A stretch of 64,000 nt of DNA from Octopus sinensis (lineage: Eukaryota): contig NC_043007.1 of assembly GCF_006345805.1 (NCBI RefSeq), positions 38,440,001-38,504,000 of the forward strand, given 5' to 3'. A program made the position numbers and the translations under genes. Positions within the stretch are counted from its first letter, which is position 1. The number at the start of each line of letters is the position of its first letter. Shown piece by piece: positions 7,402 to 46,905 of this stretch. Below the pieces are notes generated by a model, which searched no databases, had not been told where the DNA came from, and was given only the letters and a program-made list of their open reading frames with translations.

Positions 7402-7676
7402 CTAAAAAGATAAAAATAAGCTTGAGAATAAAAACACATACACACACATATATATATATATATATATAAAATAAATATGTAATATGAATGCATTTTTTTT
7501 GTTGTGTAACTGTAGAATAGTCAAGACCAAACAGATCTAATAATCAAAGACACTCCAAACGTGACCACCTAAACTTTACTGTCAAGCAGTATAGTACATT
7601 AGCCAATACATCCTTGGTAGGGTGTGATGAAGGAAATTTGGTTGCTATTTCTAGCAGGCCAAGTGACCATGTAGAG

Positions 7677-7901
7677 CCGTGGTTCTCAACCAGGGTCCAT
7701 AACAGATTTTGTCATGTGTAACAAACTGGTTATACTTCTACAATGAACAAAATATTAAAATTTTTTTAAATATAATTTTCCTAATAATATTCAATTATAA
7801 AAATATATAATAGGATTTTAAAATATCAAATGACTAGGAGGGGCCATCCAAGAATATAGGAGCCAAAGGGGTCCATAGGTAGAAAAATGGTTGAGAAACA
7901 G
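7677..7901. mobile_element. hAT-type MITE (degraded)
   Basis: Ends ccgtggttctcaacc...ggttgagaaacag; 8-bp TSD atgtagag/aggtagag (7/8). Same family as 21313-21628. Confidence 0.65.
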
Positions 7902-8684
7902 AGGTAGAGGATCCATCATTAGCGTGTATGTGTGTGCATACATACACACACATACACAACTGTGTGTGTACATACACACACATGCAAACATACCAACCAA
8001 CAAAGGAGCGTCTATGTTTTTTTTCCTTGGAATAGCAACAAATTATATACTTCCTAAGTTTGATAGAGCTACACAACAAAAAAACACATACATATATACA
8101 CAACTATATTTACATAATGAAACATATATGTCAAGGTTTCAAGTGTCTATATCAATACAGTTCTGATCAAGTACATTAAAATAAGATATCATAATACACA
8201 TAAACTATAACATCAAAACAACAGGAACAAATTAATAATACTAAAGAAAATTGAGAATGTCTTTTGGTTACACATATACACCACCACCTTCTGTTTAAAA
8301 AAAGGAGGTTAAAGTTGATTATAATAGTATAGTACAGCATAGTAGTGCCCCATCATGATTACATACTGCCCTCTATTCCTCTCTATATGTGCATGAGTAC
8401 ATATATTTATATATATATGAACATACACTATATGTACATGAGATTCTAGTACACTGCAATTCAATGGCTTGCACCATGCAACTGACAAGGTACTGTGTCC
8501 ATTGCCGAAAGTATTTGATTCTCACTGTCCCAGTCTGTAAAGATGTAAAGCAGTGTTATGGCAGGGTGCATGCAGCCTATAAGACCTACATAACAAAGCC
8601 ATTTTTTAATTTATCAGTACATCTGCTGCTGAACTCTACTTTACATAGTACCTATCTACAGTTTGATACACTGGATTATATTTA

Positions 8685-8900
8685 ACCATTCTGGTACATT
8701 TCTGATGAAATACACTGTATTTGTTCCAATTTAGAGAATAATGAAAAATTTAGTAAAATAACTTTGTCATTATCAAGCTGGTGTTTGGAACATAAACTGA
8801 CATGAAATTTTGATGGAAGACTTTAATTTATAATACATTTAAACAAGAAGTTTGTATCATAAAACCAGGCATGGTCTCAGGCAGGTTGGTATCAAAAGAG
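8685..8900. mobile_element. Degraded piggyBac-type MITE
   Basis: Similar over its length to the TTAA-flanked element at 45997-46218. Confidence 0.55.
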
Positions 8901-10429
8901 TGAAATTAAGTGGACACAAGCATTGTAGTTCCAGCATTGTGATTTAAAAAATATATATGCAAAGGAAATAGGGAAGTGCATATAACCTTTTGTAAGGCCT
9001 CCTTTATGTGTGGAGGAAAGGCAATTACAAAAACAAATGACTTGCTAAAGGCATCCAAGGTTACAGTAAGTGGTCTTAATATGGGTGACAAATAAATTCT
9101 GCCAACTCAGATCAGATACGGTATACCTGATGGACTTCCACATAGTTTCTGCTGGCCTGGTTTCACTCGTTGAGTCAACTCAAGGCTATCATAGAAGATA
9201 CTTACCCAAAATTCCATGCAGTAAAATCAAATCTGGAATTGCATGATTGCAATACTGCCATGTCTGGATCCATACAAATTTACAGGCTTCTATAAATCTG
9301 ATAGCCAGTCTAATGTGATCAATCGTTAACAAGTACACAATCTTAATTGATCAGTAGAGAACAAAGCAACCGAATCAGGTATAGGAGACAATATCTTCAT
9401 TTCCAGGAAACAGTATTAAAATCAACCAAGTAAGGAAAAGCAACTTGGTTAAACAAAAGGATAAGTTAGATAGTAAGGAAGAAAAGAGAAAGATTAGGAA
9501 AAATAAAATGAAGAAGGACTGATACAGAGAGAATACTTTATATGTAAGACTTTTACAATTTCAGTCAAATTTTGAATTTGAAACTTTATACTTTATCTGT
9601 TGCCCACATTAACACCCGACACTTTGTGTGTTTTAGTGGAGCCTACTCTGTTACAAACACACACACACACACATAGTATGACCAGTTCACAGAAATATGA
9701 CTAGCCATCTAGAATCAAAAACTCAGTGTGATGTGTCAGTATATTTTATCAAAAACAATGAATCCAACAAAATATTACATCTGTCCCTGATTTGTGTTTG
9801 GGTAAAACAGGATATGCATTCCATTGGACTCTTGTTTTTGATAAAAAACACACACACACACAAAATTCTAAAAATGACACAAGGGCTGTGTTTCATGCAT
9901 GCTACACATACTGTTCTTATAGTAATGGTTTTTCTTCCCCAATTAGCATGGGCTAGGTAGATTATTTTTAAATCTAAGTTTTTTTTTCTCACAATTCTAT
10001 GCTTTGTCTTCAAGTGGAACCAGTCATCAGCTAGATACATAGAGTCAAGCAGATTTATAAGTTTAAAAAAAAACAACTATCAAGTTTTAAGGTTTGAACA
10101 CAAGACCAGATAGCCTGTAATCCAATTTCTCACCTATTGTACACTTTTTATTTGTTTATACATTCTCCTGCCTCACCTTTTTCAATAATAGTAGTCAAGT
10201 AATCAAATGACCTATTGGAAACGTATAGATTATTTGAACAATCTTATTTTACAGATAAATGCCTGGCCTTTTGCTTCTGCAGTGGATGTGACTAAAAAAT
10301 GATAAGGATATATTATTATTCTGTTACCAGAACCAGCCACTGGACTATTGCCATGTCAGGCACCACCATCACTAATTATTCACTTAAAAAATAAAAATAA
10401 ATAAACCTTTTAATATTTTTATTTGAAAT

Positions 10430-10645
10430 AAGATGGTGAGCTGGCAGAATCGTAAGCAAGCTGGGCAAAATGCTTAGCGGCATTATATCTGTCTTTATGC
10501 TCTGAGTTCAAATTTCACCGAGGTCAACTTTACCATTCATCCTTACAGAGTTGATAAAATAAGTACCAATTGAGTACTGGTGTTGACATAATCGACTTAC
10601 CCCTACCCTGAAGTTGCTGGCCTTGTGCCAAAATTTGAAACCAAT
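10430..10645 (+). mobile_element. SINE family B
   Basis: ggtgagctggcagaatcg...ctgagttcaaat...ccttgtgccaaaatttgaaa. Confidence 0.8.
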
Positions 10646-11615: not shown

Positions 11616-11646
<31 letters not shown>

Positions 11647-11729
11647 ACCAAACCAACTAGTGCCACATTCGTAAAGTAGACAGATTAATACTTGAGGTGG
11701 TGGAATATTGTAATTGGTGGAAATACATG

Positions 11730-11932
11730 GGGCTTTGTGAGGAAAAAGGGCTTTGTGAGGGAAAAGGGCTTTATGAGGGAAAAGGGCTTTATGAAGAAAA
11801 AGGGCTTTATGAGGAAAAAGGGCTTTATGAAGAAAAAGGGCTTTATGAGGAAAAAGGGCTTTATGAAGAAAAAAGGCTTTATGAGGAAAAAGGGCTTTAT
11901 GAAGAAAAAGGGCTTTATGAGGAAAAAGGGCT
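11730..11932. repeat. 18-bp minisatellite, about 11.3 units
   Basis: Unit gggctttatga(g/a)gaaaaa; units 4-11 alternate gaag/gagg. Confidence 0.97.
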
Positions 11933-13060: not shown

Positions 13061-14594
13061 GAGCGCATTTATTTTTTTTATAGTGGGAACAGCTGTATCA
13101 AATATTCCTTATAAAATTGGTCTTGTGCATAAAAAAGAAATCAATGATTGGAGGATGAGAGAGAGAGAGAGAGAGAAGTGGGAAGGGTAAACATAATATC
13201 TCTTGCACGACCCATACAAGAAGTGGCTGCAATCGTGTTGTCAAAGAAAGGAGAAGGAAAAAAAGGACATGACAGGAAAACAAGTTAATAGAAAGTTATG
13301 AATGAAAAGAAAGTTATCAAGTTATGAATGAAAATTTTTTGTGGTAGAATTGAAATGTGTGTTTCCGCTGAATGAAAAATATTCTTGTAGCACCTGTAAT
13401 AGTATTCCAGTTTCCACTAAAAGCAATGTATTTGCACGATGTGTTAAGAGGCAAGTCAGTCGTGACACAGACCAACTCACTCGTTAGTTCTCAATCTAGT
13501 GTAACCAGTGAATGCTGAACTTTCAGACATAGGGTGAGGGGCAAATTAAATAACTTCTACTGCAATTGAAACCAGAATGTAGAGTCAGCTGATGTAGGCA
13601 ATACTACTTTATCACAAATCTGCAAGTCTTGCAACACACAGAACCAACAACATTTGTGGAACTATATATAGATAGTAGAAGTATATATAAATCAAGCTAT
13701 CCTATGGTTGGTTGCAGAGCTTGAAAGCTGAAATATTTTGAGTTTGCATCACTATAGAGATTAAGTAGAAAATTACAAAGAAACAAGCACAAGAAAACTT
13801 ATTCCTCATTTACGATTCTACAATCCTCACCACCATCACCACAATAACAACCACCACCCCAACCTCACCACTGCTGCTGCCACCATTCCCTATCCCACCT
13901 CCCATGTTGGTGTAAGGAAATTCTAAGAAAAGCTGATTATCATATAAGAATAGTAAATATAAAATATATAGACCCAGAAACACACTAATAAATATACATG
14001 TGTATATACACACATAATGTGAAATAAACCCATAACCATAAAAAAAAAACCCACACACAAACATTAAAAAAAAGTATTCATTTTCCCCCCTCAAATACTC
14101 TTTAAGAAAAAAAATACATCACACATACCCTTGAAACACATAGCACAACACACATACACACACACACACACAGATAACATGAAAGTGTTGATACACCAAA
14201 GTGGTGAAGAGAAAATAATATTGACATTGTCTTAAGAAAAACAGGAAGTTACTCAGCCCAAACAAGCATGTAGTTATCAATATAGACATTTGGCACGATT
14301 CCCTTCAGTGAGATACAATTCCAAATACAAATAATTTTTTCGCCTTATTATCATAATATCAGAAATGATGAACCATCTTTTCTTTATCTTTTTACTAATT
14401 TTAATAACACATCCAAGTGTTGAGCCATCAGGTTATTATTATTGTTATGTATAACAGATGATGGGAGGGGAAATATCAGAGAATCCAACACTTTTGGAGA
14501 ACGAAAGCAATTTATGCATGTATGTGTCTGCATGCATGCAAGTACATGAAGTTGCATAAATAATGAGGTGTGGCACACATACAAACAAAATTAT

Positions 14595-14962: not shown

Positions 14963-16189
14963 TGTATGTGTGTGTATATATACATAATATATCATCATTT
15001 AACATCTGCTTTCCATGCTGACATGGTTTAACTGAAACTGGTAAGCTGGAGGACTATGTCACGTTCCAATCTGATTTGGCATGGTTTCTATAGCTGGATG
15101 CCCTACGTAATGCCAACCACTCCAAGAAGATCTCAAGCATGGCATATCACCAAAGGTCTCAGTCACTTGCCATTGCCTCCACAAGGCCCAATGTTCGAAG
15201 ATCATGCTTCACCACCTTGTCCCATGTCTTCCTGGGTCTACCCCTGGCACAGGTTCCCTCCACAGATATTGGCACTTCTTTACACAGTTGTCCTTGTCCA
15301 TCTCATCAATTTTATTTGATGTCCACTTTTCCATATAAGCATGAATCAAAGGAAATTTGTGGAAGCAGATTTTCTATGGCCAGATGCCCTTATTGCCACC
15401 AACCCTAATCTGTTTCCCCTAGTCCTTCCAGCATGAACAGAACAATAGCCAGAAAGAATTTCTTAGAAGACTGCAAATGAATAACACTGCTTCTATAATG
15501 GTGATTTTCATTGAAAAGTAGTGTATTAACATGGGACATGAGCACACACAGAGACACACACATACATGATGGACTTCTTTCAGTTTCCATCTACAAATCC
15601 ACTCACAAGACTGGCTGCCTAAAGTTATAATAAAAGACACACAAGGTGCTATGCAGTGAGATTGTTGCTGCAAAGCCAATTACATGACCACACAGTTATG
15701 CCTGTGGCTGTACCTGGGTGTGTGATCATTCATATCATTGCTTTAACATCTACTCTTCAATGCTTGATTGTGTCAGATGAGACTACACTGAGGTAAGGTA
15801 TTCTATGGCTGGTTGCCCTTTCTGATGTCAATCATCATCTGTTTCCAGGTAAGATAAGCTGGACATGCTATTGTGATGAACTGCAAGTAAATGACAGTGC
15901 CTGTATAAACAGTGACACTTTCTGTTTCCTATCACCACACGTGTAAAGGTATGGGAAAATAACATGAATTCCCTCACACAACAGATTTCTTCTGTTTCCA
16001 ACATCAACTTCATTCACAAGGTTCAAGTGCTGTTGGCTATGATAGAAGTCAATTGGCAACAGCATCCACACAGCCAGGCCTGTATCTAATGTGTGCCTAA
16101 ATGCATGTATGTTAGTATATAACAAAGTATGTAAGTGTGTATACTGGATTTGACATAAAGCATATATATATATATATCTCAGAACAACA

Positions 16190-17250
16190 CATTCCATTTT
16201 TCATTAGATTCATTGACTTTACAAAAGCTTCCAACAGGGTGGGATGAGAGGGCTTATAAACCCTGCTCAAAACATATAGATGCCCAGATAAGCTTGTGGA
16301 GATTGTCAAGCAATGTTGCAATGATATGTCAGCCATTCTCTCTTGAAAACAGCAGCTCAGACCCTTTACCAGTTACCCATAGAATAAAACAAAGCTCTGT
16401 ATTCACTCCAATGCTATTTGCATTATTTCCAGGTACTGTGCTTAAAAAGCTAGCAAGTAATCACAGAGGTGGTGTGTATATCTGCATAAGAGTTGATGGT
16501 GGATTGTTGAACAATATGAGGACTAATATACATTGGAAGCGATGTGAAGTGTGTATTTGCAAACTTCTTTTCACCAATGACTTAGCTTTGGTAGCTTATT
16601 CCATAAAAGATACCCAGAAAATTATACGTTCTTTTCAATGTGTGGCATCACCTTTCACCCAATCAATAAATGTGAAAAAGCCTGATATCTTGCACCCACC
16701 GAAACCTGGAGTTCTGGCACACAAAATCCTGACCATTACAATTGCAAATAAGCCTCTAAGAAAGAAAATGCTTGCATATTTAGAGAGTACAATTACTTAC
16801 AACAGCCTGGATGTGAAGGTGAATCATAGAATACAATTGCGTTCATGAAGCTTGAAGATCAATCATGAAAATAATATGGCATAAAACTGTCATCAAAATG
16901 AAAAGTCTACCAAGCAGTTGCACTATCCTGACTGCTGTATTCTACTGAGACCTACACATTGTATCACTAGCATGTAAAAATGAGCTGTCAGTTATATCAG
17001 CCACAATCTAAAAGGGACAATCCTTGACAAGACTACATCATTGATCAAGAGGTCCTACATCATTGATCAAGAGGTCCTACAACATACCAAAAATATACCT
17101 GAAGTCAAGTCCATTCTGATGGAATAGCAGTTGCGCTGATGGGACATTTGATCCATATTAAAGACACCAAGATCTCTAAAACTGTCTTACAATGAATTGA
17201 GATGTGGAAACTATCAAAGAAAGTGTCCAAAACTCTGTTTAAGGATGTTA
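16190..17250 (+). mobile_element. Degraded RTE-like LINE reverse transcriptase remnant
   Basis: ORF 16213-16848 has decayed RT motifs: VTHRIKQSSVFTPMLF (GVKQGCVLAPxLF), LLFTNDLAL (LLFADD) and YLESTI (YLGS). Frameshifted ORF2 remnants continue downstream. Confidence 0.85.
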
Positions 17251-20200
17251 TAGGCACAATCCACCTGATAACCTTCTGCACAGTTTCCATCTATCCAATT
17301 TCACTCACAAGTCTTCAGTTTACCCAGAGTTGTGGTAGATAACACTTACCTAAGGTACTCTGCAATAGGGTCATTCTAAACAAATTTTCTTGTTTTATAA
17401 ACATCCTAATTACTTCCCTTGGAAATTTTTTCGTCTCTAATGAAAAGCAATAATCTACGAATTATTTCCCTTGATTCACTCTTCAAATGCTGCTTTAAAA
17501 TGGTTTTAAAATTTCATAATTTCGACTCCTATGAACATTTGTTTGTCTGAAAATTTGTTTGTGATCCACATTCATCCTCAGACAAGAAACTTGAGATTTT
17601 AGAATTTTGGAGAAAAAGTAACGAAACACAGCACTGTTCATACTGTTTGAAGAGCATTTTAGTGGCCTAAACCCACAGAAATGGTTTTAAGTAGGTATCA
17701 AAATGTGTTGTTGATTCTGCTTGCAAAACTAGGGTTGCAACCAGTACACTACAATGCCTTCCAGTAATGTCAGGAGAAAAACTTTCCATTATTTGTTTTA
17801 GAATACATAAGCTGTGCAAAAAAGGGTGCTGTTGATAGGTTAATTGACTGTCGAACAAAACCACCAAAGTATTAAGCATTTGCATCCTATTATTGGAACA
17901 GTACTTATGTTTATGGCTTAAAATATTACTTCAATTCTTGTTTGCTCATTTCAGTCAGCTGAAGACAGATACCATGCACTAAGCACAATGGAAAAAGTAA
18001 AATGGTACAGAATTGGTGAGGCCTGGGGCAAGAATTTTGTTGTTTCTTTGGTAAAACTATTATTCTACAGGCCTTAAAAATATATGAAGATTTGGTTTCT
18101 AATCTCCGTCAAGCCAAGGAAACAGAGCTAGATACTACACTAGCAGCCAAAAGTATAGATTGCTATTATAAACAATGTGTTTTGTTAGTTTTCAGTATTG
18201 TTCTCAAAATCTTCTGAATAGACCTAGATGATGTTAATAGGAAACCACTACTTTGAAAATCCAGCAGTTGTTTCATTGTCAGGATCCTTGAGTGTCCTGC
18301 AAAACTTGGTGGTAATTAGGACAGATTACAAAGAGAAACAACACATTAGAAGTATAATGGTTGTTTGTTTGTATAACTTGCAAAACTCAGGCATTGAAGT
18401 CAGATGCAGCAACAGTTTGTAACAAGACTAGTCAAATTGATGGGAACCAAAGGAATGACCCCTATCTGCTTCTCATTCTAAAGTAGAACTGAAATATATA
18501 AATAGAGACCACACAAAACAAACAAAATAGCTACAATTGAAAATAAAAAAAGAAACATGAAATCAATAGTTTCTGAAACTGAAAACACTTGTCAAAGTAT
18601 ACAAACCAAAACAACAAAAAATATAACTTCAAAGTCTCAAAATTAATTTAATGGACAAGCGAAATTAAAAATTCAATTTACTATTAAATCTTCATTGACA
18701 GATTTCTTTATATATATATATGTATATGTATCTATGTATGTCTGAGGTTACAAATATACAATAAGAGTTGTATAGTAGAGTAGGCTAGCAATACATACCC
18801 TGAAAAAATGATAAACATTCTGAAACCAATATTATGCCTTACTCTTGAAGAACTCTATGAAATATTTCTTACGAATTTACTTTAAAAAAATGATGGCCTC
18901 TCAAAAGGCAAATCAGTTACATATTCAGTGACTGACAGTTATGTTTGCTATTAAGAAGTCTCAAAACAAAAAACTAATCAGATTAGCTTTTTGATTCACA
19001 ACAATCAAAAATGCTTAATTGCATTTATAATGAACTTTTTTTTTTTTGAAGAATTCTTAGATGAGTATAGCCAAATATGGTTTTCAGAATATTTATTTCA
19101 ATAATCATGTATTTTGGGTATAAATGAATTTTATGACTTCTTTTGTTTGTATAATTACAACATCAACCATTACTATTTATAGAGAAAATGGTAAAACCTA
19201 AGTAAAAACAAAGGCACTGGCTCAAGTGCTGCTATTATGAAAATCTTAACTTATATGGCATTTGATCACCTAATTTCATTACCAACACTGCTATACCACT
19301 GAAAACTGGTTTCTGAAATTTGCTTGTGTAATACACTCAAACAATAATATCTACTAACTTCCTTCAGGCTATATATGCATTGTAGTTTAAACCTTATAGT
19401 ATGATATATACATATAACAATTAAGGGTTTTCTTCTCTGTCAGAACATACTTATACTTACATGTGTTGACTTTCACTAAGAAATTGGTTAAACTAGCACC
19501 AACTAGTGATTCCAGAATATGAGGATGAGATTGTAAGAGAAAAACTAATTCCAACTTACTTAGAGCCACAGCAACTTGAAGTAACAAGTTGCTGAACCTT
19601 CCAGCTGAAAACAAGTTATTTATATGTATCTAAGTATTACAAGCTATCTATATGTATTCCATCATTAGCACTATATTACACTTAGCAAAAGACCTATAAC
19701 ATTCAAAGACAATTGACCAAACAGTAAAAAGAAATTGGTACCACAGGGTAGTGCAACTCACTCCTATATGCAGTTGTGAGGAAAAAGGAGCAAGATGTTT
19801 TTTATGAGTGCTTTGTTTACTTGCAGTGTTAATCTGAAATCTTTCCATAGTTGCTGGAAAGCATTCCAGTAAAAAAAACCTTCAACGGTGCCTCGTTAAA
19901 TAACAGAATCACTCCCTCCCATTATTTGTAAATATTTTTCCATCTGAGTTCTGTGATTAGTGTTAGAAAAGATATACAAACAATTAACAAAACAAAAATA
20001 GGAAGAAAAAAAAAATTGTAATAAAAAAGCAAAAATTATTAAAACAGCAAAAACAGTAAACACCTGCTCCAACAATTCGTGCAAATGCCTGAATTTGCAG
20101 AACCATTCACCCACTAGTGACGAGAAGAATCAATGTAAACAAAACTGTTATGACATAAAACCACATAAGTAAGATAAACATGGATTATTATTATTGAACA

Positions 20201-20870
20201 TATAAAAAGTATTTAATTTGTTAGAAGAGAAAATAGGGGGTAGTGAAACAAATATAAAAACACCAAGTTAATTAACAAGAATATTAATTAGAAACAAGGG
20301 TTATTTCTATTAAACTAAAGAAGGTTAGTAGAAAAGAAAATTATTTCTGTATTGTTTTTGGAGGTGAGTGGGGGAGGGGAGTTCTAATTAAATTTGTATT
20401 CACAATAGATTTTTTTTTAAATCTAAATTTTTATTTTCTATTGAAGCAAACTGTTTGTATTTTCAAAATTTGTAAAAATGCATTTCCAGTTGAATTTTAA
20501 AAAAAACTGCCTATAGTTTTTGACTTAACCCTTATTGTTTCTGTATATATCATACATGCATTCATTTACCTGAATCCACACACACACTTAACACATAACA
20601 TATATACATGTAAACATTTTGTTTTTATATCATGTTATTTTATGCCGTTGCATTGTTGGGTATAACTGGTTCCACAAGGTACTTTTTGCTCAATGCACCT
20701 GATTTTCAATACAAACACACATATATACAAATCCATACCTTTCTATCATATCTACCTATCTTTTATATATATTATCAATAATAATAAAGGGTAAAATTAA
20801 TTAATCAATTTATAATTAATAATCTTACCAAGTAGTTCAGTATGTTAAAAGAACCATTATTGGTAAACTT

Positions 20871-28849: not shown

Positions 28850-29800
28850 GTGATGTTTTCCAGGAAGTGATGACAAAATGAACCACTGTACTAGCGCTTA
28901 AAGAAGTGTCTTTATGCCATATATAGCTTGTTGGTGTGTTGGCTTTAGAGACATCATTCTGGTATCCAATACTTATCTCTAGGCATGTGCCTTGTATGTA
29001 GCAAAACTTATGTTTTGGCATTTGTATATCAGCTCTTAATTAGACATGCTTTTCATGCAGTTATAGCTCACCTTAATTCTGTCTTTGTTGAACAGCTGGT
29101 GGAATTCATAACTTTTTTCCAATTAGAGTAGACATGATTACAATGCCAGTTTTTACACCAATACAGTGAATTATGTTGTATAACATTTCCCTTTCTGGTT
29201 AGATGGTGATGGTGAATACTTTAGTCTTTTTAGCTGATTTATTGGAACATGTAGAGGACACTTGGCAGTGATCGGTTTGTGAGTGAATGTACAATGTGGT
29301 GTTATTTTGTTTCTTGAAAGGTTCAAATGATTCTGAGATCAGTTAAGCAATGACATAATAAACTGAACATGGAAGTTTAACATTATAAAGTATACTTCGA
29401 TTGTCACTGTCAGGCTAAATTTGTTGTACATTGTGATTTGCCTCTTGGGAGAGTCGGTTAAGTGCCTGTTCATACTGCTTCATTCAAATCATGAGCTCAG
29501 CATCCCTTTTGAAGACCTATGTTAAAGCCATTAAAACAGCTCTCCATTTTGTACAGTATGAACAAGCCTACTAACTCAGGTAATTTGGTCTAACTAAAAT
29601 TCCCCATGATAACATCAAAATTACTCATTCCAGCTTTCTTAATCTAGCAACACAGCAACAAGCTACACAGGACTTACAGAATACTCCCCAAAGAGTTAAC
29701 TGCATCAATACATCAACTCCTCAAATTATTACCATCTGCAAAGCATCACAGTACTTTCAAAGAGAAAATGTGAGATCAGCATATGATGGATAGCATTAGA
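28850..29800 (-). mobile_element. Degraded Penelope-like retroelement (RT to GIY-YIG)
   Basis: Minus-strand fragments FDVIMGNFS, ELVGLFILYK, FEPFKKQNNTTLYIHSQTDH and FHQLFNKDRIKVSYNCMKSM occur in the order expected for a Penelope-like ORF. Confidence 0.75.
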
Positions 29801-31296
29801 TAAAGCATGGTAATTTAAGAATGGGTCAATGTCCTGCAACCTCTGTGACAAAGAGAAGTTCTATTTCATCCTCTAACTCCAATTTTAAATGACAATGATA
29901 CAACTAAACCAGTTATTAGGGACATTACTGAACTACCAAAGGAGTTTCTGCAGTCATTTGACCTGCTGGAATAAACTACTGAATTTTCCTCAAATTATAT
30001 CCAACATCCTAGAAAAGGGAAGGCTACATTGGATAATGTTCCTAAAATATACAATGCCTGAGACAAGAACTGGCTTGTCATGGTTCAAACACTTTTGACT
30101 ATATATTTGTTCAGTTATGACTTGGACAAAGTAACAACAATAACAGCCTGGTTGACTATTAGAGTTACTAATACTGCTTCTATTTAGCTAAATATTTTTA
30201 GCATTTCAGTGTTTAATCCTGATAGAACTTAATATATAGAGTGCTTGGGAGGCAACAACAGTGACTCATGGGCCTAGAGTTTCATGCTGAAGCATTTGTC
30301 AAGTTGTAACAGGTTTGAAAGTTACTCTATGTGCACAAATATATGCATGTATATATATGTAAATCTAGATTTTGGCAAGTATATTTGCATTTCTCTAAAA
30401 TTAAGTAATTCTAATGAGATGTTAATTCAACGATTATTCCAAGATAATTAATTATTGAAAAGCAAAGAAATTTTTTTTATTTATTCCTAATTAAATACAC
30501 ACACAACACACACATACACACACAATACACACACACTAGCTCACAGAAACTGAAAGGTATCTCAATTAAAAATAATGAAGTTAATAAAATAAAATAAATG
30601 AAAATAAAATTTTAAAAAACAATTAAAAACAGGATTAATTAATTTTTTTGCTTTGTTATTCTACTTCAACAGTTCAAAATGTATTAACAAAACAAAAAGA
30701 ACACAGAACAAAACAAAAATTTTTTTTAATTCTTAATTAGTCCTGAAGCTGTATTAATTAAGGCAAGTTAGCATTAATTGTCTTGCCCTAAAGTCAGACA
30801 CAACACAATTTCCCACCTAGAGAACAACAGTAGGATGGATACAGCAAACCACGAAGGGAGCCCCATTAAAAAGGGCTAAGTTTATTATTATGTCTATATT
30901 TTTATCCACTCAATTAGCCTGTCTTCAAGTGAACAAATAGTTAGATGGATGAATACACTTTTGCAAAAAATTCCAAAAAATTTTAATAATTTTTTTTTTT
31001 TTTAAATTAAATTAAACAAAAACAAAAGTCAGGGTTGGAAATGGGTTGGAAAAAAATAAATAAACCAAAAAACATGCCACATGTAACTTACTGTGGGTTC
31101 TTGACCATCCTGAATCCACCGGAAATGAAAAAGCTTAATCATTAGCAAGAAGGCTATAGCACAGTAATAATAATAATGATAATAATAATAACATAATAAT
31201 AAGGTGAAGAATATATATATATTATTAATATTATTACTAATAATATTTATTATGAATAATAAAAAAAAATAAGTAATAATAATAATAATAATAATG

Positions 31297-31640: not shown

Positions 31641-33639
31641 TAATAATCTCTAACATTTGTACAAGGTGACCACAAATTTGTTGGTCAAAAGAGTGGAAGG
31701 TGAGAAGTTGATTGATTCAAATGAATCAAGTCCTGTACACAGCTAGTAGTTATTTTTATCAAGTATAGTGGGGTTACACATTAAGTTCAATGTCAACAGG
31801 ATTTTAATTCATATTACTGAGGGACAAAATTAAACAGCTTAAGATATTCTAGTCTTATGTACCTTGAGCAAGGAAGCAGTTGATTAAATCAACTCCACTA
31901 TACCTCACTGATGATTATTGCAACAACCCTGGTGCAATCAGAATGTAAAGAGATAAAACTAGAGATAGATGTCCCACCCACATTATGGAAGTGTTGGGTC
32001 CCTAAAAATTTTGTCAGAACATGGAATTCCAGGTTTCCTTTTGACTTTCAATGTTATGTAGCAGTCAAAGAATATGAAAGTCAACAGGGAATATGAGTTT
32101 CACATTATAGAACTCCATCTAAATTACAGCAAGATTTTTAGGAACACAACACTTCCATGACAGAGAGGATGTCTGTAGTGTAAGACATAACATTCTATTG
32201 GTTCCTCCACTCAAAATAATAGTAGTAATGATGATTATAAGGATGATAACATAAGGATCTCAAAATTAAAATAAATTTTTGGAAATGAGTATACAGAGAA
32301 TACCAACAACAATAATTGTAATTATTGGTTGGCACACTGAGTATGGTTATCAAAAAAATAAATATAAATAAAATAGCAAAACAAAAAGAAAAGAAAAGAA
32401 ACAAAATGACGAAAACATGAATTAATACATGACAACACTGCCAAGTCTCACAACATTGCATATGGGCCCCTGAAACAGCGCAACTAAGCACTACACACAT
32501 TCTACACAGAATCCTCTCAATACAATTAACACAACATGTATAAATGACACTCTGAAGTGAAACTGAAAGTAACTTCTAATTAACATAATCAAAGAAAGTA
32601 AAAAAAATAAAAAAAGAAATGACAATACAATGAAACAATCTTCAATATAAATAATCCATTCGATACCAACCCAGTGAAAACTGCCCTTGGTATTCTGATA
32701 TAAATTCCCGGCTTTAAAGGAAATTAACTGAAAATTTTCCCTGAAAATTTCATGTTAATTTTTATTCTTAACACTAGTTTGATAATGACAGTTATTTTAC
32801 TAAATTCTTCATCATTTTCAGAATTTATTGAAAAAAAGTCAAAGTATTTTCCATAGAAATATGATACAAGGGGTTAAGTGATCTAAATTAAAACTACTCA
32901 TCAAAATTTCACGTTAATTATATGTTCCAAACACAAACTTAATATTACTACATTAAATTTGTCATTCTACTTAAAGTTTCAATAGAAATATGGTAACAAA
33001 GGGTGATGTAAATAAGTAAATAAATTGATTATGGTTTGATTGTTAGGAATTCATTTGTTCAATCAATTGAATTATCATCAGCTCACTGCCTTAATAAAAA
33101 TAATAGCTGTCACTCACATGTGAGAATGGCCTGATAGTATGTACCATGCCTTTGCTAATTGTTTTAGATGTCAATATAATCACAAGCGGACAGAGACATC
33201 CACTCCACCGTCCACCCTTGACCCAACAGAACATTGGGGATGTGAGAGCTAGTAATTATTTTCAGCTGAGCAGACTAGAGCAAAGACTGAAACGAAGTCT
33301 TTTGTTCAAGAGATTGGGAAGTGGGTGGGGATGACACTACCTGATCCAAGAATCAAATCCACAATCGTAATGATTGTGAGCCCAACACCCTAACAGCTAG
33401 GTCAAGTGCCCGAGGTACAAAAGTTTATAACAATTCTTGCCTGCATGAACAGAAGATCATAACTTTGTGGTGAAATAAATTTGATTCTATTTAAACCAGT
33501 AAACTGCTAGTTGTTAGCCTTGATAGAACAGACAGACCAATGATCAAAAGCATTCCAACCATGACAATCCAGTTTTTTTTCTACCATAATATATTTAAAA
33601 CTACATTGTCTAATAAGTGGTTCTTGTTTTTTTTTTTTA

Positions 33640-35241: not shown

Positions 35242-37756
35242 ATGTATATATATATATATTTTTTAAAATTCATTTTACTGGTTTCAGTCATTGCATTGTG
35301 ATCATGCTTGGACATTTCCTTCAAGAGTTTTAGACAATATTAACCCCAGTACTCATTTTATTAACTGGCTAAGTTCATGTGAGTTACATCCCATTAGGAA
35401 GTTATGAGCCTTTCACGAATGTAAATACTAGTATTGACACTAATACACACAAACTCATACATACTCAACCACACATATAATGGGCTTCTACACAGTTTCC
35501 ATCAAATTTCACTCAATATCATTGGTCATTCTAAAGGTTATGATATACGATATTTGCCCAAGGTCATATGAAGTGGAATAAATGATAGAACCACATAGCT
35601 GCAAAATAAACTTTTTAAGTCACACCCATGTCACACACACACACACCACACACACACACACACACACAATCAATAGCAATTGGTCAGTTACCTGCGTAGT
35701 TTCTACTTAGGTTACTTTGGTAGCATTCGTCATCACCCATTCCTCATAACCTCTCTATTACTAACATCACTGTCATCACCAGCAAATCAGCATTTGATGC
35801 TTGCATCCATTATTGATGTATTCGTCATCATATTATTTGATACTTTCACCTTCATCACAATTTTGTTAGTCATCATCATCAGAACAACCACTTTTCCATG
35901 TTTGCCTGGATTAGACAGAATTCATTGAGGCGGATTTTTCAATGGCCAAAAGCCTGTCCTGTTGCCAACCCTCACATGTTACCAAGCAAGGCAATATTTT
36001 TCCATGGCCAGACATGTTTTCACAAAATATTGGGAATGAATGACACTGTTTCTATGACAGTAACACAGTTTTTTCAGACATATTGTATCTAAGACTACAT
36101 TAGTTAATGAATTCTTCCTTTTAAAAAAAAAAAATATATATATAATAGAGAATGATTTGAAGGAGATCAGGTAGATGCTTCTAGAAGAACAAATGACCAT
36201 GGCTCATAGAAGATCCTTTAGTGCAGTCAGCGTTTTCATAATACTTTGAGAAGGAAAATATAGGGGTACCATAATTTTTTTTAAAATACCTCATAAAAAT
36301 CAGGTGTCCCATTTGTCAATCAGCATTTAAATTTCTTTTTTTGTTTGAAAACATGATGAAAGGAACACCATATATATATATACATACACACAATCTCACA
36401 CACATACATGCAAACATTAACAAACATAGGCATATGAATAAAAGCACATAAGCAAACACGATATGTACACACACACATACACACACTATGTTAATCTTTT
36501 TAGGTGTTGCAAGAATCTAAAAGACAAAGTATTCAGCTATGATTTCAGTAGGTTCAGCAACTTAGAGTCAAATCTCCTCCTTGTCTCGAACATAACATTA
36601 TATGTAAGATGCACGCACATATACAAACACACATAAGCACATACATGTCATTTAGTACATTGAAAAGCATACACATGTCGTTCTTTAATTCATTCATTCT
36701 GTCCATTCGGGAGCATTGCACACACACACACACACTAACTTATACATATAAATCATTGTGTATCTAAATTTCTATGTTGTGGCTTCCTGTTTGTTTAATA
36801 TTAAGTATGTGTGAATGTGTGTACTTTGTAGATTTTTCATGTGCCTTGAATGGGTGTGTGTATCACCGGGCGCATTTGTGAATATGCAGCTGCCTGTGTG
36901 TCTGCATATGTACTTGTACATGTGCAATTACTTGTGTCTGCGTGTGTACATGTCTACATGCAACTGCAGAGTGTGTGTGTGTGTTTAACTGCTTGTATGT
37001 AAGCGTCTCTGTGTATAAAACATCCAATGAACAAAGCTAAACTGTTATATTTCAGACAACAAACAACAAACAACAGCCTTCTTTCTCCCAATAAGAGACC
37101 TGCCCCACTGTGCAATAATAAAAAAAATGAGAAAAACAAACATACAACACAACACAATAACAAACACTTGACACTCCTGTGAATTTGTTATTGTCTATTG
37201 GTGGTGATGGTGGTGTTAGCAGTGGTGATGGTGGTGTTTTCATTTGTAAATGTCTACTTTTTTTTTTCATCCACCTCCTCCTCTTTCTCTATCTAAAAAC
37301 TTTTACATTTCACAGTTTTAAGGACAACAATATTAACAGAAGGGATTGGTGGTGTTACCTTTACCTGACAAGACTACAACAAAAAAAAAAAAAAATTAAA
37401 TTAAAATAAAAAAATGTATATAAAGTCAGTTAAATATAGAATAATAATAATAGCAAGAGTAATAGTAATTATCATTGTTATATGCAAAATATTGGTGCCT
37501 GTGTGTGTACATGCATGTACACACACAAAAGCACAAACACACATTCATAACATACATAAACTTGCATGAATACATATATAAACACATCAAAACATACATT
37601 ATTTGAGTACATTCTTATTTCATAATGTTTGTGTATGTGTGTCTGTGTTGTATTTTGGAAGTGTTATCTTTGTCAATAATTATACATAAACTGATTATTG
37701 CTATCGTCATCATCATCATCATTATTATTATTATTATTGTCACTGCCATTATTATT

Positions 37757-40212: not shown

Positions 40213-43200
40213 AATAATGATGCTGATGCTGCTGATGCTGCTGCTGCTGATGATGATGATGATGCTGATAATAATCCATTCATCTCTAATTATTGGCAAA
40301 GATAAAAACTTCTGAAGTACAATATTTGTTTCAATGCATCAATTTCAGATTGAAATTCTTGTCAATATATATACACAGATATATACACAAACTTACATGC
40401 ACACAAACATATGCTCATAAACATGTTAACGTAACAGTGAATTGTCAACAAAATTTTTTTCTTAATGTTTTTATGCAGCTTATGAAGAAAATGTAACCAT
40501 TATTTCCATGGGAGTCATATATCAATGAGGGACTGGCCATCTGCACTTATCTGCCTTTCATAACAGAAATGAGCAGTGGGGAGCAGAGAGTGTAAAAAAC
40601 AAAGTTAATGATTACAAGAAGCATAAAAAGTGATGAAATAATGATGGGAATACAGAAAAGATGTGGTAAGAAGGAAGGGAAACTGAAAACGAATAAGAGA
40701 AGGAGAGATAGGGAATGACAAACGAAAAAAGGGGAGATAATGAGAGAAAAACTAGTTGGAAGGGATAAGAAAACTGATGCAGAATGGGAAGAAAGAGAAA
40801 GAAAAAGTACTGTAATGATACAGTGGGGTGATATTTTAACATAATCAAAAATAATTATTCCTAAATAGAAGAGAGAAAAAGAAGAAATGGGTGCTTGTGT
40901 GAGGAGGACGAGAGAGAGGGTAAAAGAGGATAGACAGAGATTGTATAGGTATAGGATAGTGAAACAGAATTTTGTAGAAGAGACAAGAGACAACTAGTTT
41001 ATACTATACAAAAGTCAACATGTACAATATTAAATTAGTTAAATCTCATAACTAATGACATGAAAATTAAGTTTGTTGTGGAGAGAGAAATAGACAGACA
41101 ATACCTGTTTCAGGTAAGATTCTTTCATTCTCTAGTGTTTGCAAAATATTCTTGCCAGCACAGACTATTCTTAGTTCTCTAGAATCCTAGTGATTAATAT
41201 TATAGTCAATAGTGGTTTCTTTTTTAGCAGACAGTGGCCAATCAATATTTTTAAGAGAGAGTCTTTAAGTAGGAGTACAACATTGTCAGAAAGTCAGTAG
41301 TTCATATCCAGTTACAGGCAATGCGTGACTAAACTGGCCCAGTCCACCTAACTGAAAATGGGTTTAAGAAAAGCTTACTGCTCTAAGCAATAGCAACACT
41401 GTAAAATCAACAAGTGGTTTGATAGCTTGCAATATTCTGTTCATTTCTATGGTAAGTATAGCTCAGCGAAACTGGTATGCTAATTTTCCCAAGACACACT
41501 ACAAGAAGATGAAGTTATCCATGGTGTCACTATGAACTAAGGATTAAGGAACTAGAAAGAGTTAATTCAAATTATTATAGGATATTTATCATTAGTACTA
41601 TAGTGTCAGTAAAGCTACTATAGTATACTTAAGTTGATGTTAAAATTTTCAATAGAGGAAGCAGTAAAGAGCTACCTAAAAGCAATTAGTGATAAAATTA
41701 ATATCAGTCATAGAATTATATTATTTTAAATCTTTTAGCAAGTGTAAGAGATAATTCCAAATATTAACTTGATTAACCAGGGGTGGACTAAGCAGCATTG
41801 ATTGAATATAGGTGTGTACTACTATATTCAACTCATTTGCGTACACTCAAACCTGGATAGTTCTTCACTAAAGAAATTGTCTCAGGAGAGAAATTCTCCT
41901 TTTACACAATATGAAAAACATACAACTGAGTTATGAATGACAGTATTGAACTTCAGGACACATGCTTCTGTGTAGCTATGCTTCATCAAACATAGACACA
42001 GAATCCATTCTTCATAGTGCACCAAGAACTGCCAATTTTACATTTAAACTGCATATAGTAAATTTGCTGATGTGTGCTGGGATTAATTAATGAGAGTGCA
42101 TTAAACAACATTGACTGAAATAGAGGTGTGTATGATTATATTTCTATCTTATCAAACCTTGTCAGCAAAGCTATACTTGTAGTAGGAATGAAGAGAATTA
42201 TTAAATAACTTTACAATAATGCAGGTACAGAAAAATAGAAATGTTCAGGTAATAAATTCCCTCTCAGATGTTCTCTAAATTAAAATACAATAGTTAATAT
42301 AGACATTTTTAATGTAAAGTGCATAAAAAAATCTATGCAACTAAATCTGAACCAGCAAATACTTATAGTCTTTGAAATTGGGATACCATGAACCATTAGA
42401 AAAAATAGCACAAAAGCTTAAAATCTCACAAGGGAAGATAAATAGTTCAATCTCATTTATCTTCTCTTGTAAGAAGTACTCCATATGCTATTTACCCAGG
42501 CTTGTACCCTGGTAGTGCAGACCAGTGTCAACAGTGATAGGAAATATAGATTAAAATTTACGCTTCTACTCCAATTACCATGCCTAAACTATAATCTGAT
42601 AAAATTTAAATGTTTTCATAAAACTATTGCTTCCATGGAAACATAATTATTTCTTTAGTGTCCTTTCACTTCATTAAAAAGAGAGAAAAAAAAGGGGGGA
42701 TTTTTGGCAAGATGATTCTTTCCCTTAACATAGGGAATAATCAATCAACTAAGATATTATTACATCAATAAAGAAAATTTTCGCAAGAACTGTGTATGAA
42801 AACATCTCCAGAAATGGCTGGAATTAACTTTTAAAACTTGAAGAATGTCTACAAGAAAACCATAGTTCTAATTACAAAGAAGGGGAACAGCATTAGTTAT
42901 ATTTACAGGAGACATGAACTGGATTGTTTTGAATAACATTGCAACATGTACATACATGTGTAAATTTCAAATTAAGGTAACTACTATCACTTTCTCTCTC
43001 CATCTCTTATACTACTAATGAACTATGAATAATAATGACCTCATTATATGCCTTCCCTCTACCTACTTCTAAAATGTTGATAATTTAATTTCATATAATG
43101 CAATGTTTAATAAGACCCTCGTTCTTAATGACATCATACTGAAGAAATCCAACTAGATCAAAATAGCAGCTATATACAAAAATTTGAATAAAGAACATTT

Positions 43201-43822
43201 AATCAAATAAATGCATAAAGATAAATTTCATTCACTTCACTAATGGATTCTTGGCAAGAAACAAAACCATGTCCATATATTTATTCTATGGAATTCCAAA
43301 TATCTGACAACAGATGAAACAGTAGAACACCTCATCAAACAATGTTTTTTACCCACACCTATGAACACTTTTTGAAGAACTACCAAAAGTTTGTTAATTT
43401 CTTAACTGAACTGATATCACACTCACACATTTTATATGGCATATGAATCAGTCACTGGTACTTTTCATATGACATATTGAGTAACACTCTGGTAACTAGT
43501 GCACAGAAAGTTTGCTTGAAGTGTATACAAACATCTGTAGTGAAAGACCTGTGCAAATGTGACCAGACTGATAGCCCACCACCACTTTCAGAGGATGTAA
43601 CTACAAAAGAAACACATTCTATATTGCATCATCTTTAACAAAAAATAGCCAGCTGGTTGATAGGCAAAGATTAATTCACCAAATGCATTGCATCCACTAA
43701 CAGGGTGTTGGTCATTTTTGTCACTTTTCTGCTCAATCTGAATAAGCAGGAAGCATAATATTCCTGCTGAAATCCAACACCTATCATCCTTATTGTATTT
43801 CACTCTCCTAACACAATATTAG

Positions 43823-44034: not shown

Positions 44035-45996
44035 TTAAACACTACCCAATAATGCCCTACATTAAACACTCTGTCCCACCCTGAAATTCAACTGTCTTTA
44101 AATCATTCCATGTCACACATTGCATGCAGACATTTCACCTGAATGTCAACATGGGAGGATCTGTATAGATTGAGTGATATTCTCTCTTCTTAATTACAAT
44201 AACATGTACACAATATTAAATTTCCTTACTTGAATCTTAAATAAACTCTATAACCTTACTCTCGCGTTCTCTCTTATTTGCTTGTACATACCATATATAA
44301 TTACTGGTACATACATGGATACATAGTTGCAAAACTTTTGTGTCCAAATAACAGATCCATGAAGCATCCGTCACTATTATAATTGACCCTTTCCACATTT
44401 ATAAACAAAACACACACATATTACACACTCACAGAAAGGCATACATACATATATTTTGAAGACATGTCTGCGCATGAGTTTAATATTTTTTATTAACAAG
44501 TTTTCATATTTCCATAATTATTGATTCAAACTAAACATAAAGGCCTGATAAAGATATATGGAAAATCTTTAGTAAAAGATTTGATGAAACATGCTTAAAG
44601 AAAATAGTTCTTTATAAATATAGACACAGGCATAACTGTGAAAAAAAGGGTTTGTTTCCCAACTGCGTTGCTCAGGGTTCAATTCCATTGTGTGTCATAT
44701 TGGGCAAATGCCTTCTGTTATAAAACCCTGGGCTGAGCAAAGCCTTTTAAGTAGATTTGGTAGAGAGATATTGAAGGAAGTCTGGCGTGCATGCATGCAT
44801 GTGTAAATGCACCTGTCTCTTTACCTTGACAATGCATGATAGTAGTAAACAAATGTCACCGTCATGCAAGGCTTGATTTCCATTTCAAAACTTCCTTGAA
44901 AACATGTCCGTCTATGGGGAAAATTTACCTTACTTGGAAACAGGTGATGGTTGGTGATGGGAAGGACATCCAGCTGTAGAAAATCCACCTCAGTAAAATT
45001 CTGTCCAACCCATGTGTGCATGGATTAGTGGATATATGAACAATGACGATGATGAAGATGATGATGATGATGATGTGTGTGAGGGGGGAGTGATTCTCTA
45101 TTGGTTTCAGTAATGAGCACAAGGTTGTTCAATCAACTGAATTACCTGCTCAATGTATTACCATGAGTCACTGGGCATTCTCCTAACATAGTTCTCAATC
45201 AGAATCAGCATGACAAGGCTGTACCTTTGAATCACAAGTACAGTCAATCCAATGGGCTTCCATATAGTTTTCTCTACCCAATTTCATTCACAAAGGCTAT
45301 AGAAAATGATGTTTGCATAAGATGCTATGCTGTGGGATTGATCCTGGTTCCTCATGGTTACAAAGCAATCTTTAATCATTCATTCATTTTTACAATTTTT
45401 TTTTTCTAATGTTAGCAATGGGTTACATGAATGTAACATTGTTTTACAGCCTGATGCCCTTCCAATCACTAGCCTGTATCTTTCAAGTAAAGGATCTGTG
45501 CTTTGATAAGCCTTCAAAAGCACAAAGTTGGTAGAACATTTGTTCAGCAGAGAAATGATATCACTGTTTGTAGCTCAGCAAATTTTCAGCGAACACACAC
45601 AAATCCATATACAATGGACTTCTTTCAGTTCCTATCTCCCAAAACCACCGACAAGGATTTGGTTGGCATAGAGCTGAAGAAGGAATCTCCTTACTTAAGG
45701 TAACATGCAGCGAACTTCTTAATGACATAGCTATATCTGCACTTATATAACACACACTATGTATAAATGTATTGCACAGTTACATACACAACTTTTTTCT
45801 TCTTTGGAATGTTAAATCCTGAAGCAGGTAAGCTATAAATAATACCATGTAAACACTGGGTTAAAAACACTTTTGATGAAAAAAGTTGAAACTGCCCTTG
45901 GGTTACAAACTTACACCTGTAAACATGACTTTTTTATAGACAAAGTGATTTTTAACCTGAAATTTACATGCCTTTATTTATAGCTTATCTCCTTAA

Positions 45997-46218
45997 CCCT
46001 TTCGTTACCATATTTATTTTGAGATGCTCTGTGTTTCATTCAATTAATTTTAAATATAACAAAGAATTTAATAAAAGAACTTAGTTATCATTAAGCTAGT
46101 GTTGGGAACATAAATTGTGACTAAGGTTTGGTGGAAGATTTTAATTCAATACTTATGAAAACAAGACATTTGTACTACAGAGCCAGAGGTGATTTTGGCC
46201 GGGTTGGTATCAAAAGGG
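45997..46218. mobile_element. piggyBac-type MITE
   Basis: TTAA on both sides (45993-96 and 46219-22); TIRs ccctttcgttacc / ggtatcaaaaggg. Confidence 0.85.
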
Positions 46219-46688
46219 TTAAAGATCCAATATTCCAAAACAGAATTCATGTCCCCTTAAGTTCATAAATTCTTATGATGTCAATAGCATATACTATTTT
46301 ATTTTATAAAGGAGTGTCTGTAACTTACTGCAAAACAAATGTTGCAAGAGACTGGTTTTTCAGTGTTCTTGCTCCATGTTTACATCTTTCACCAATATAT
46401 ACACCCACAAAAATTACACACACACACACACACACACACGCATATGCAAGCTATGAACCTCCACACAGTTTTTCCAGCAACCAAATTCTACCTACAAAGC
46501 ATTGATTAACTCACACTCATAGCTAAAGTTCTTCGGCCCAATGGGATTAAATTCAGAACCACATGGTTTAGAAAGTGATATTCTTAACCACCTAGTCATG
46601 CTTATATATATATGTTTACATAGACAAACACATACATATTTACATACAGGTACTCTTCCTCTTTCTTACATTCTCTTTCTCTTTCTCT

Positions 46689-46720
<32 letters not shown>

Positions 46721-46905
46721 GATTTACACCTATACACAGCATTATTGAAAGATGAAGATGATAGCAAATATAGTAAAACTTTGAAAGGGACAAAAGAGAG
46801 ACTGACAGAGGGGATAGAGGTAGGGAAAGATAGATAGATAGATAGATAGAGAGGGAGAGAGAGAGGGGGAGAAGGGATGGAGGAAATGGAAACCATTATA
46901 ATTAC

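What the first reader, a model, noticed from the sequence alone, without database searches (positions are those of the whole stretch)
7402..46905. The giant intron at the PH-kinase junction of Akt may hold a combinatorial microexon / alternative-start system
Seen: this intron is 4-40 times longer than the others, is phase 0, and follows a short linker exon (32 codons). Outside recognisable transposons it contains several AG-(3n)-GT units that read through in frame: 37365-37373 SCQ (or SCQVK), 32452-32469 GPICNV, 31092-31109 DGQEPT, 13899-13922 NFLTPTWE and 8526-8534 TGT. It also has an ATG-initiated phase-0 exon (19762-19848) and stop-containing candidates. Established: neural microexons are typically 3-27 nt, frame-preserving and regulated by Srrm/eMIC (UGC near the 3' splice site) and Rbfox (UGCAUG); PH-kinase contact autoinhibits Akt. 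Inference: splicing here could tune linker length or uncouple PH from kinase. Caveat: 40 kb of AT-rich DNA yields some such motifs by chance, so probably only a subset are real.
Basis: partly seen in the sequence, partly recalled or inferred. Interest (0 to 1): 0.75.

Follow-up and report, generated by a model that had tools for sequence, protein, structure and literature searches.

The report
Cephalopod Akt linker microexon switch
An octopus gene for the growth-signalling kinase Akt has two tiny optional exons, one shared with more distant cephalopod-like transcripts, which insert up to nine amino acids right where the protein's self-inhibiting domain joins its kinase and so likely retune how easily Akt is switched on.

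Summary
The 39,504-nt phase-0 intron of octopus Akt is real (4.0-42x the other nine introns). Two of the five proposed microexons are spliced: RefSeq isoforms carry SCQ+DGQEPT, DGQEPT, SCQVK, SCQ or neither. DGQEPT is identical in O. vulgaris, O. bimaculoides, Argonauta and a sister clade 93% identical, and absent from 89 of 89 other mollusc rows. GPICNV, NFLTPTWE, TGT and the ATG exon are in 0 of 15 listed proteins; such motifs occur at chance level. PH-less starts are unsupported. The inserts fall between the basic patch and the kinase start. The Arg144-equivalent position is K/R in 105 of 110 other Akt junctions; DGQEPT puts Pro there and makes the segment acidic. A six-glycine linker insert raised basal and lowered pS473 activity of human Akt (PMC7438110), but another lab found Arg144 dispensable (PMC8379990). 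Amphioxus has an unrelated 11-residue insert at the same junction. Neural specificity, eMIC control and any kinase effect are untested. No earlier scan note covers this gene.

The parts
46906..47002 (-). Constitutive exon 4: end of PH helix and linker (EEW...SRKKV); K128 is the Arg144 equivalent
   Evidence: register against human AKT1/2
7402..46905 (-). Phase-0 intron 4, 39,504 nt; the two confirmed microexons split it into 9,532, 6,255 and 23,690 nt
   Evidence: lengths from exon coordinates
37365..37373 (-). Microexon A, 9 nt, SCQ; T-run acceptor, AG-free zone of 123 nt, donor GTAAAG
   Evidence: RefSeq O. sinensis X1 and X4 (P0001, P0006); rank 1 of 1025; indirect contig evidence in run X1
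37359..37373 (-). Microexon A long form, 15 nt, SCQVK, second donor GTAACA 6 nt downstream
   Evidence: RefSeq O. sinensis X3 (P0010)
31092..31109 (-). Microexon B, 18 nt, DGQEPT; weak acceptor, perfect GTAAGT donor
   Evidence: 6 of 15 listed cluster members: O. sinensis X1/X2, O. vulgaris, O. bimaculoides, Argonauta hians and unnamed P0012/P0015
31141..31145 (-). Branch-point-like CTAAT at -36 of microexon B; UGC at -38 and -52 only
   Evidence: function inferred
31073..31077 (-). GCATG (Rbfox-like) at +15 of microexon B's donor
   Evidence: function untested; TGCATG is common in this intron (25 sense, 32 antisense)
7270..7401 (-). Constitutive exon 5, first kinase exon (SLDD...VAK)
8526..8534 (-). 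Unconfirmed candidate TGT; best eMIC-like signature of all (UGC at -18, -29, -36, -40; TGCATG at -40 and +46) but in no protein record
   Evidence: (rank 4); single-copy; two acceptor-region substitutions in runs X1 and X3
32452..32469 (-). Unconfirmed candidate GPICNV, likely chance
   Evidence: 0 of 15 proteins; rank 13
13899..13922 (-). Unconfirmed candidate NFLTPTWE, likely chance
   Evidence: 0 of 15 proteins; acceptor score negative
19762..19848 (-). ATG..GT unit, chance-level, no record
   Evidence: single-copy
9206..9217 (-). ATG unit MEFW + GTAAGT that begins an O. bimaculoides PH-less model; the donor lies in a dispersed repeat
   Evidence: P0008; 38 other genomic matches at query 248-334
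7835..7876 (-). ATG unit matching the start of another O. bimaculoides PH-less model; weak donor GTCATT, next to repeat sequence
   Evidence: P0005

Best explanation
Octopus Akt has two optional, frame-keeping microexons (SCQ or SCQVK, and DGQEPT) spliced between the linker's basic patch and the first kinase residue, and including them likely loosens autoinhibition and weakens activation by hydrophobic-motif phosphorylation. Shown: the exons, their combinations, the position of the insert, and retention of DGQEPT across cephalopod records. Inferred: DGQEPT moves K128 (Arg144 equivalent) from -2 to -8 and puts Glu-Pro-Thr in its place, so phospho-S459 (S473 equivalent) would lose its basic partner. 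The linker also grows by 6-9 residues, lowering the local PH concentration. The predicted result is an Akt with a higher floor and lower ceiling of activity in the tissues that include the exon, probably neural (untested). DGQEPT is the old, selected switch; SCQ(VK) is probably a younger exon built on a T-run.
For: Isoforms X1-X5 of O. sinensis differ only by these inserts. DGQEPT recurs in O. vulgaris, O. bimaculoides and Argonauta, and in unnamed transcript proteins that form a supported sister clade (31-32 substitutions from Octopus versus 4 for Argonauta). That clade shows both forms: P0011 direct on 85 contigs, P0012 with the insert on 22, otherwise identical. Four RNA-like runs resolve the acceptor in three different ways: an AG-ending upstream exon in X1, a G-ending one in X3, a non-G-ending one in X5 and X10. 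This fits sample-dependent majority isoforms (indirect). K/R sits at -2 in 105 of 110 distinct non-cephalopod junctions, and net charge at -6..-1 is never negative (110 of 110); DGQEPT gives Pro and -2. Q202, T291 and S459 are kept. The model puts the insert in a low-confidence coil between the PH helix and the kinase. Hexa-Gly in the human linker gave ~8-fold higher unphosphorylated and 3.4-fold lower pS473 activity (PMC7438110, passages). Simulations support a pS473-R144 contact (PMC12724016, passages).
Against: R144A had no effect, and a 7-residue-shorter linker behaved like wild type, in PMC8379990 (passages). Natural linkers span about 31-80 residues, so length alone is well tolerated. 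The hexa-Gly insert was mid-linker, upstream of the basic patch, not downstream as here. 0 of 6 changes in DGQEPT against 7 of 32 in the flanking exon is not by itself significant (about 0.23 by chance). No tissue labels were available and no junction read across either microexon was seen directly. Neither exon has a UGC between branch point and AG. SCQ(VK) appears only in O. sinensis models (3 of 15 listed). The AlphaFold model is mediocre (mean pLDDT 61).
Confidence: 0.55

Rival explanations
1. DGQEPT is a regulated, conserved microexon but works as an interaction or modification tag (a docking site, a new phospho-acceptor Thr, changed localisation or phosphatase access) and leaves autoinhibition unchanged.
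For: R144A and linker shortening were neutral in PMC8379990. The insert lies in a disordered segment. Its sequence, not only its length, is kept in all 6 records that carry it. N1-Src changes ligand specificity as well as activity (PMC5577857).
Against: The insert lands exactly between a nearly invariant basic residue and the kinase start and reverses the local charge. No partner or motif was identified here.
Confidence: 0.28
2. The microexons are tolerated splicing leakage from a long intron into a length-tolerant linker; SCQ in particular is a T-run cryptic exon or a recursive-splicing landing site (CAG|GTAAAG at 37364).
For: SCQ is seen only in O. sinensis models. Its acceptor is a simple T-run and its donors are weak in their intronic part. 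An AG|GT site exists there, though sense AG|GT sites score no better than antisense ones. The junction drifts by +/-Val in oyster, periwinkle and fish.
Against: DGQEPT persists across a deep cephalopod split and is the assembled form on 22 contigs of the sister clade. In run X1 the AG-ending path appears to carry most of the depth (446 against 15.7 for the intron).
Confidence: 0.12
3. The intron holds internal promoters that make a PH-less, lipid-independent Akt (MEFW, MDPF.. or MIKL..DGQEPT starts), and this is its main regulatory role.
For: Three O. bimaculoides RefSeq models start inside this intron, and all three starts map to the window with open frames. Low-depth contigs of two runs end at 9442, upstream of MEFW.
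Against: That species' gene is split in its annotation (a separate 97-aa PH model without the linker exon). O. sinensis X1-X5 all keep the PH domain. The MEFW donor is part of a dispersed repeat. The contigs near MEFW run unspliced through the donor. ATG..GTRAG units are at chance level.
Confidence: 0.08

Closest known systems
N1-Src / N2-Src neuronal microexons of c-Src (PMC5577857, passages read)
   Same: A 6-residue microexon inserted into a regulatory part of a ubiquitous kinase; reported to raise constitutive activity.
   Different: N1 sits inside the SH3 domain of a vertebrate tyrosine kinase and is shown neural. Here the insert is in the PH-kinase linker of an AGC kinase, two sites combine, and tissue and effect are untested.
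eMIC (Srrm234/SRRM3/4)-dependent neural microexons (PMC8797185 passages and section 16; 10.1101/2024.09.17.613571 passages)
   Same: 9-18 nt, frame-preserving. DGQEPT has a weak acceptor and a CUAAY-type branch point, SCQ a long AG-free zone. An SRRM_C exon is in the genome.
   Different: No UGC between branch point and AG in either exon (present in 74-79% of mammalian targets, not required). DGQEPT has a short AG-free zone (22 nt). Neural inclusion not shown.
Human AKT1 pS473-Arg144 basic-patch model and engineered hexa-Gly linker (PMC7438110, PMC9417420, PMC12724016; disputed by PMC8379990; passages read)
   Same: Same junction (R144-V145|T146 = K128-V129|S130) and the same insert length as DGQEPT.
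   Different: A natural spliced insert, placed downstream of the basic patch and acidic, rather than a mid-linker glycine spacer.
Branchiostoma lanceolatum Akt isoforms X1/X2 (P0213, P0217)
   Same: Optional in-frame insert at the identical junction, removing the basic residue at -2.
   Different: 11 residues, unrelated sequence, so likely convergent. Database models only; exon structure not checked.

Membership tests
Alternative frame-preserving microexon | Length 3-27 nt, multiple of 3, canonical AG/GT, no stop | tested here: met
   9, 15 and 18 nt
Alternative frame-preserving microexon | Both inclusion and skipping forms exist in transcript-based records | tested here: met
   SCQ, SCQVK, DGQEPT and direct forms; not met for GPICNV, NFLTPTWE, TGT (0 of 15)
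Alternative frame-preserving microexon | Conserved across species | tested here: met
   DGQEPT in four named octopods and a sister clade; SCQ(VK) only in O. sinensis records
eMIC-dependent neural microexon | UGC between branch point and 3' AG | tested here: not met
   DGQEPT: UGC at -38 and -52, upstream of CTAAT at -36; SCQ: none within 60 nt. The motif is not strictly required
eMIC-dependent neural microexon | Weak 3' site, strong CUAAY branch point, long AG-exclusion zone | tested here: inconclusive
   DGQEPT has the first two, zone only 22 nt; SCQ has a 123-nt zone but a strong acceptor
eMIC-dependent neural microexon | eMIC domain encoded in the genome | tested here: met
   PF15230 match over the cut-off, model positions 13-55 only
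eMIC-dependent neural microexon | Neural-specific inclusion and response to Srrm234/eMIC | not testable with these tools
   runs carry coded labels, contigs only
Activity-tuning kinase microexon (N1-Src-like) | Insert in an element that mediates autoinhibition | tested here: inconclusive
   position next to the Arg144 equivalent is shown; the role of Arg144 is disputed
Activity-tuning kinase microexon (N1-Src-like) | Measured change in catalytic activity | not testable with these tools
   needs kinase assays
Internal-promoter, regulatory-domain-less kinase | Spliced first exon inside the intron joined to the kinase exon | tested here: inconclusive
   models in O. bimaculoides only; no such joint among the rows shown for 7000-10300 (26 rows not shown); donor in a repeat
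Recursive splice site | Polypyrimidine-AG|GT site above background in a long intron | tested here: not met
   best sense scores 4.4, 4.3, 4.2 against antisense 5.4, 5.1, 4.9; sawtooth read pattern not testable

The most novel reading that the evidence does not exclude
Cephalopod neurons switch Akt by splicing. DGQEPT unhooks the conserved basic latch from the phospho-hydrophobic motif and gives an Akt with tonic activity and little dependence on mTORC2. Amphioxus reached the same switch independently at the same junction, which would make this intron a recurrent hotspot and a natural test of the disputed Arg144 mechanism.
Probability: 0.22. Interest if true: 0.8.

Novelty: new member of a known kind. 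Interest (0 to 1): 0.57.

Why it matters
How C-tail phosphorylation relieves Akt autoinhibition is disputed: one lab finds that pS473 pulls on linker Arg144, another finds R144A neutral. Cephalopods keep natural isoforms that differ only by a six-residue acidic insert at that position, which gives a clean, evolution-vetted pair to assay. It would also be a lineage-specific splicing switch on the insulin/PI3K pathway in the invertebrates with the largest brains. The isoforms are in RefSeq, but my searches found no paper describing them. Supplements of microexon surveys that include octopus could list the exon and were not seen.

Tried and rejected
GPICNV, NFLTPTWE, TGT, ATG unit 19762-19848: in no listed protein and at chance level. 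TGT stays open on its motif signature. Runs X5 and X10 had no cover over TGT, which is no evidence either way. No listed holder was on record as RNA; all laid runs were contigs. RNA was laid only on 7000-10300, so both confirmed microexons, GPICNV, NFLTPTWE and the ATG unit were not covered directly; the loose-end table was filled by repeats (763 rows not shown). A search for short fragments spanning the junction found no candidate. A degenerate microexon pattern in metagenome contigs gave one unrelated chance hit. Transposon bloat as the cause of intron size: local repeat share 22% against 17-28% in introns 1-3 (only 194 kb compared). Rfam: 0 matches in the window. Recursive splicing: not above antisense. 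No related eukaryote genome was available, so intron conservation was not tested. Torres-Mendez 2019 and Chu 2018 were not held. 10.64898/2026.09.05.749416 includes octopus but has 0 occurrences of 'akt' in its main text; its supplements were not seen. PMC8911335 mentions AKT3 only for a circular RNA in the passages shown.
Full report
Gene and intron. The window lies at G000:C11:38440001-38504000 and carries Akt on the minus strand. The linker exon finds one cluster, named RAC-gamma kinase of Octopus sinensis. Mapping the direct isoform on the window and its neighbours gives 11 coding exons and introns of 8251, 9857, 5126, 39504, 1881, 946, 1200, 3150, 2011 and 3295 nt. Intron 4 is phase 0 at KKV|SLDD and is 4.0-42 times the others. 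It is not richer in local dispersed repeats than introns 1-3 (22% against 17-28%).

Chance. The sense intron has 1025 stop-free AG-(3n, 3-30 nt)-GT units, the antisense 956 and block shuffles 995+-32. With a recalled generic splice matrix, the candidates rank 1 (SCQ), 2 (SCQVK), 4 (TGT), 6 (DGQEPT), 9 (NFLTPTWE) and 13 (GPICNV). Only the SCQ site exceeds the controls. In-frame ATG..GTRAG units number 26 sense and 20 antisense. Sequence alone therefore cannot pick the real exons.

Which are real. The cluster has 19 members, 15 listed. The O. sinensis isoforms read KKV-SCQ-DGQEPT-SLDD (X1), KKV-DGQEPT-SLDD (X2, shared with O. vulgaris), KKV-SCQVK-SLDD (X3), KKV-SCQ-SLDD (X4) and KKV-SLDD (X5, shared with O. 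vulgaris). DGQEPT is in 6 of 15, including O. bimaculoides, Argonauta hians and two unnamed transcript-derived proteins. SCQ(VK) is in 3 of 15, all O. sinensis. GPICNV, NFLTPTWE, TGT and the ATG unit are in 0 of 15. The unnamed proteins form a sister clade to Octopus plus Argonauta (support 97/94 within a 100/100 clade), 93% identical to Octopus against 99% for Argonauta (15 proteins chosen for the tree). That they are squid or cuttlefish is my inference. P0011 (85 contigs) and P0012 (22 contigs) differ only by DGQEPT. In other molluscs, 89 of 89 rows end the linker in KKV, RKV, KKK or RKK with no insert, so the exon looks cephalopod-specific within what these records show.

RNA contigs. Four RNA-like runs (coded, contigs only) were laid on 7000-10300. 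The tables were crowded by repeats, but the kinase-exon contigs are informative. In X1 the contig (depth 446) starts at 7403 and the intron contig (depth 15.7) overlaps it by exactly 30 nt. With 31-mers this implies a second, spliced path ending in AG, which fits SCQ or SCQVK (or NFLTPTWE) and not the direct or DGQEPT junction. In X3 the match stops at 7402, as the direct junction would. In X5 and X10 it stops at 7401, which fits DGQEPT but also other non-G ends. This is indirect, but it suggests that the majority isoform differs between samples. No joint to TGT, MEFW or the 7835 donor is among the rows shown (26 not shown). X1 and X3 carry two substitutions within 8 nt of the TGT acceptor.

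Alternative starts. O. bimaculoides is annotated as a 97-aa PH piece plus three PH-less models. Their starts map here at 31142 (an extension of DGQEPT), 9217 (MEFW) and 7876. The MEFW donor lies in a dispersed repeat with 38 other matches, and contigs there run unspliced. I read these as products of a split annotation and cryptic sites, not as shown promoters.

Regulation. Fly eMIC targets have weak 3' sites, long AG-free zones, UGC near the AG and CUAAY branch points (PMC8797185, passage). UGC is present in 74-79% of mammalian targets and is not strictly needed (10.1101/2024.09.17.613571, passages). DGQEPT has CTAAT at -36, a weak acceptor, a GTAAGT donor and GCATG at +15, but no UGC after the branch point and a 22-nt AG-free zone. 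SCQ has a 123-nt zone and no UGC. TGT has the best signature. An SRRM_C exon is in the genome. Membership of the eMIC programme is open.

Protein effect. By register with human AKT (numbering from PMC12724016), S130 = T146, V129 = V145 and K128 = R144. Among 177 non-cephalopod rows (110 distinct junctions; 18 of 206 proteins lacked a readable kinase start) position -2 is K or R in 105 of 110, and the last six residues are never net negative. DGQEPT gives Pro at -2 and charge -2; SCQ gives Cys and SCQVK Val. The activation-loop, turn-motif and hydrophobic-motif residues and the Q218 equivalent are kept. AlphaFold2 (mean pLDDT 61) leaves 115-132 below 50, between the PH helix and the kinase start. 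In human Akt, pS473 is proposed to bind Arg144. A hexa-Gly insert in mid-linker lowered pS473 kcat/Km 3.4-fold and raised the unphosphorylated form about 8-fold (PMC7438110, passages). Against this, R144A changed nothing and a 7-residue-shorter linker behaved like wild type (PMC8379990, passages); the first lab attributes the difference to that construct (PMC9417420, passages). I therefore commit to a higher-floor, lower-ceiling Akt as the likeliest effect, at about even odds, with a docking-tag role as the main rival.

Wider pattern. Branchiostoma lanceolatum isoforms X1 and X2 carry an unrelated 11-residue insert at the same junction, while 6 of the 8 amphioxus rows are direct. Oyster, periwinkle and fish Akt vary by +/-Val there. 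Recurrent new exons in orthologous genes have been called hotspots (PMC8797185, section 16 read). The closest functional precedent is N1-Src, a 6-residue neuronal microexon with higher constitutive activity (PMC5577857, passages).

Novelty. Searches for microexon+octopus, microexon+Akt linker, Akt+octopus+splicing, akt3+microexon, PH-less Akt with an alternative promoter, and neural microexons+amphioxus/octopus (listings seen) showed no paper on these exons. The 2019 eMIC paper was not held; from recall it included octopus, so its supplements may list them. Verdict: two real microexons of a known kind at an unusually informative position; function untested; interest 0.57.

Noticed in passing
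P0213, P0217 (Branchiostoma lanceolatum Akt X1/X2): An 11-residue optional insert at the same PH-kinase junction, unrelated in sequence to the octopus ones.
   Followed up: partly
window 46903-46908; P0137/P0144, P0022/P0150, P0109/P0120/P0126: Tandem donor (GTG|GT) giving +/-Val at this junction in Ostrea edulis, Littorina saxatilis and fish akt3; the octopus exon end has the same GTGGT but no -Val record.
   Followed up: partly
L001 (window -5904 to -6137): Many other molluscs have two alternative last exons (one ending SFETTW-like, one ending YLS..ELF-like). Only the second type was found within 30 kb downstream in octopus, and all four cephalopod proteins checked use it.
   Followed up: partly
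window 9206-9232: An AG 27 nt upstream of the MEFW donor would make a microexon with an in-frame TGA followed by an in-frame ATG (poison exon or re-initiation); no record supports it.
   Followed up: no
window 15665-20870, 27842-31228, 40323-43808: The longest locally repeat-free stretches of the intron; one holds DGQEPT, and the 23.7-kb remainder may hide further exons.
   Followed up: no
window 16159-16848 (+): 229-codon open stretch that looks by eye like a decayed LINE reverse-transcriptase piece; no Pfam match.
   Followed up: partly
window 63170-63487 (+): 105-codon stretch that looks by eye like a hAT-type transposase fragment; only a sub-threshold Pfam hit.
   Followed up: partly
window 11730-11932 and 60022-60298: Tandem repeats of 18 nt x 11.3 and 63 nt x 4.4; the second is the most CpG-rich spot in the window.
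   Followed up: no
L014:1501-1635: Exon encoding the first part of the Srrm234 eMIC (SRRM_C) domain on a small contig.
   Followed up: partly
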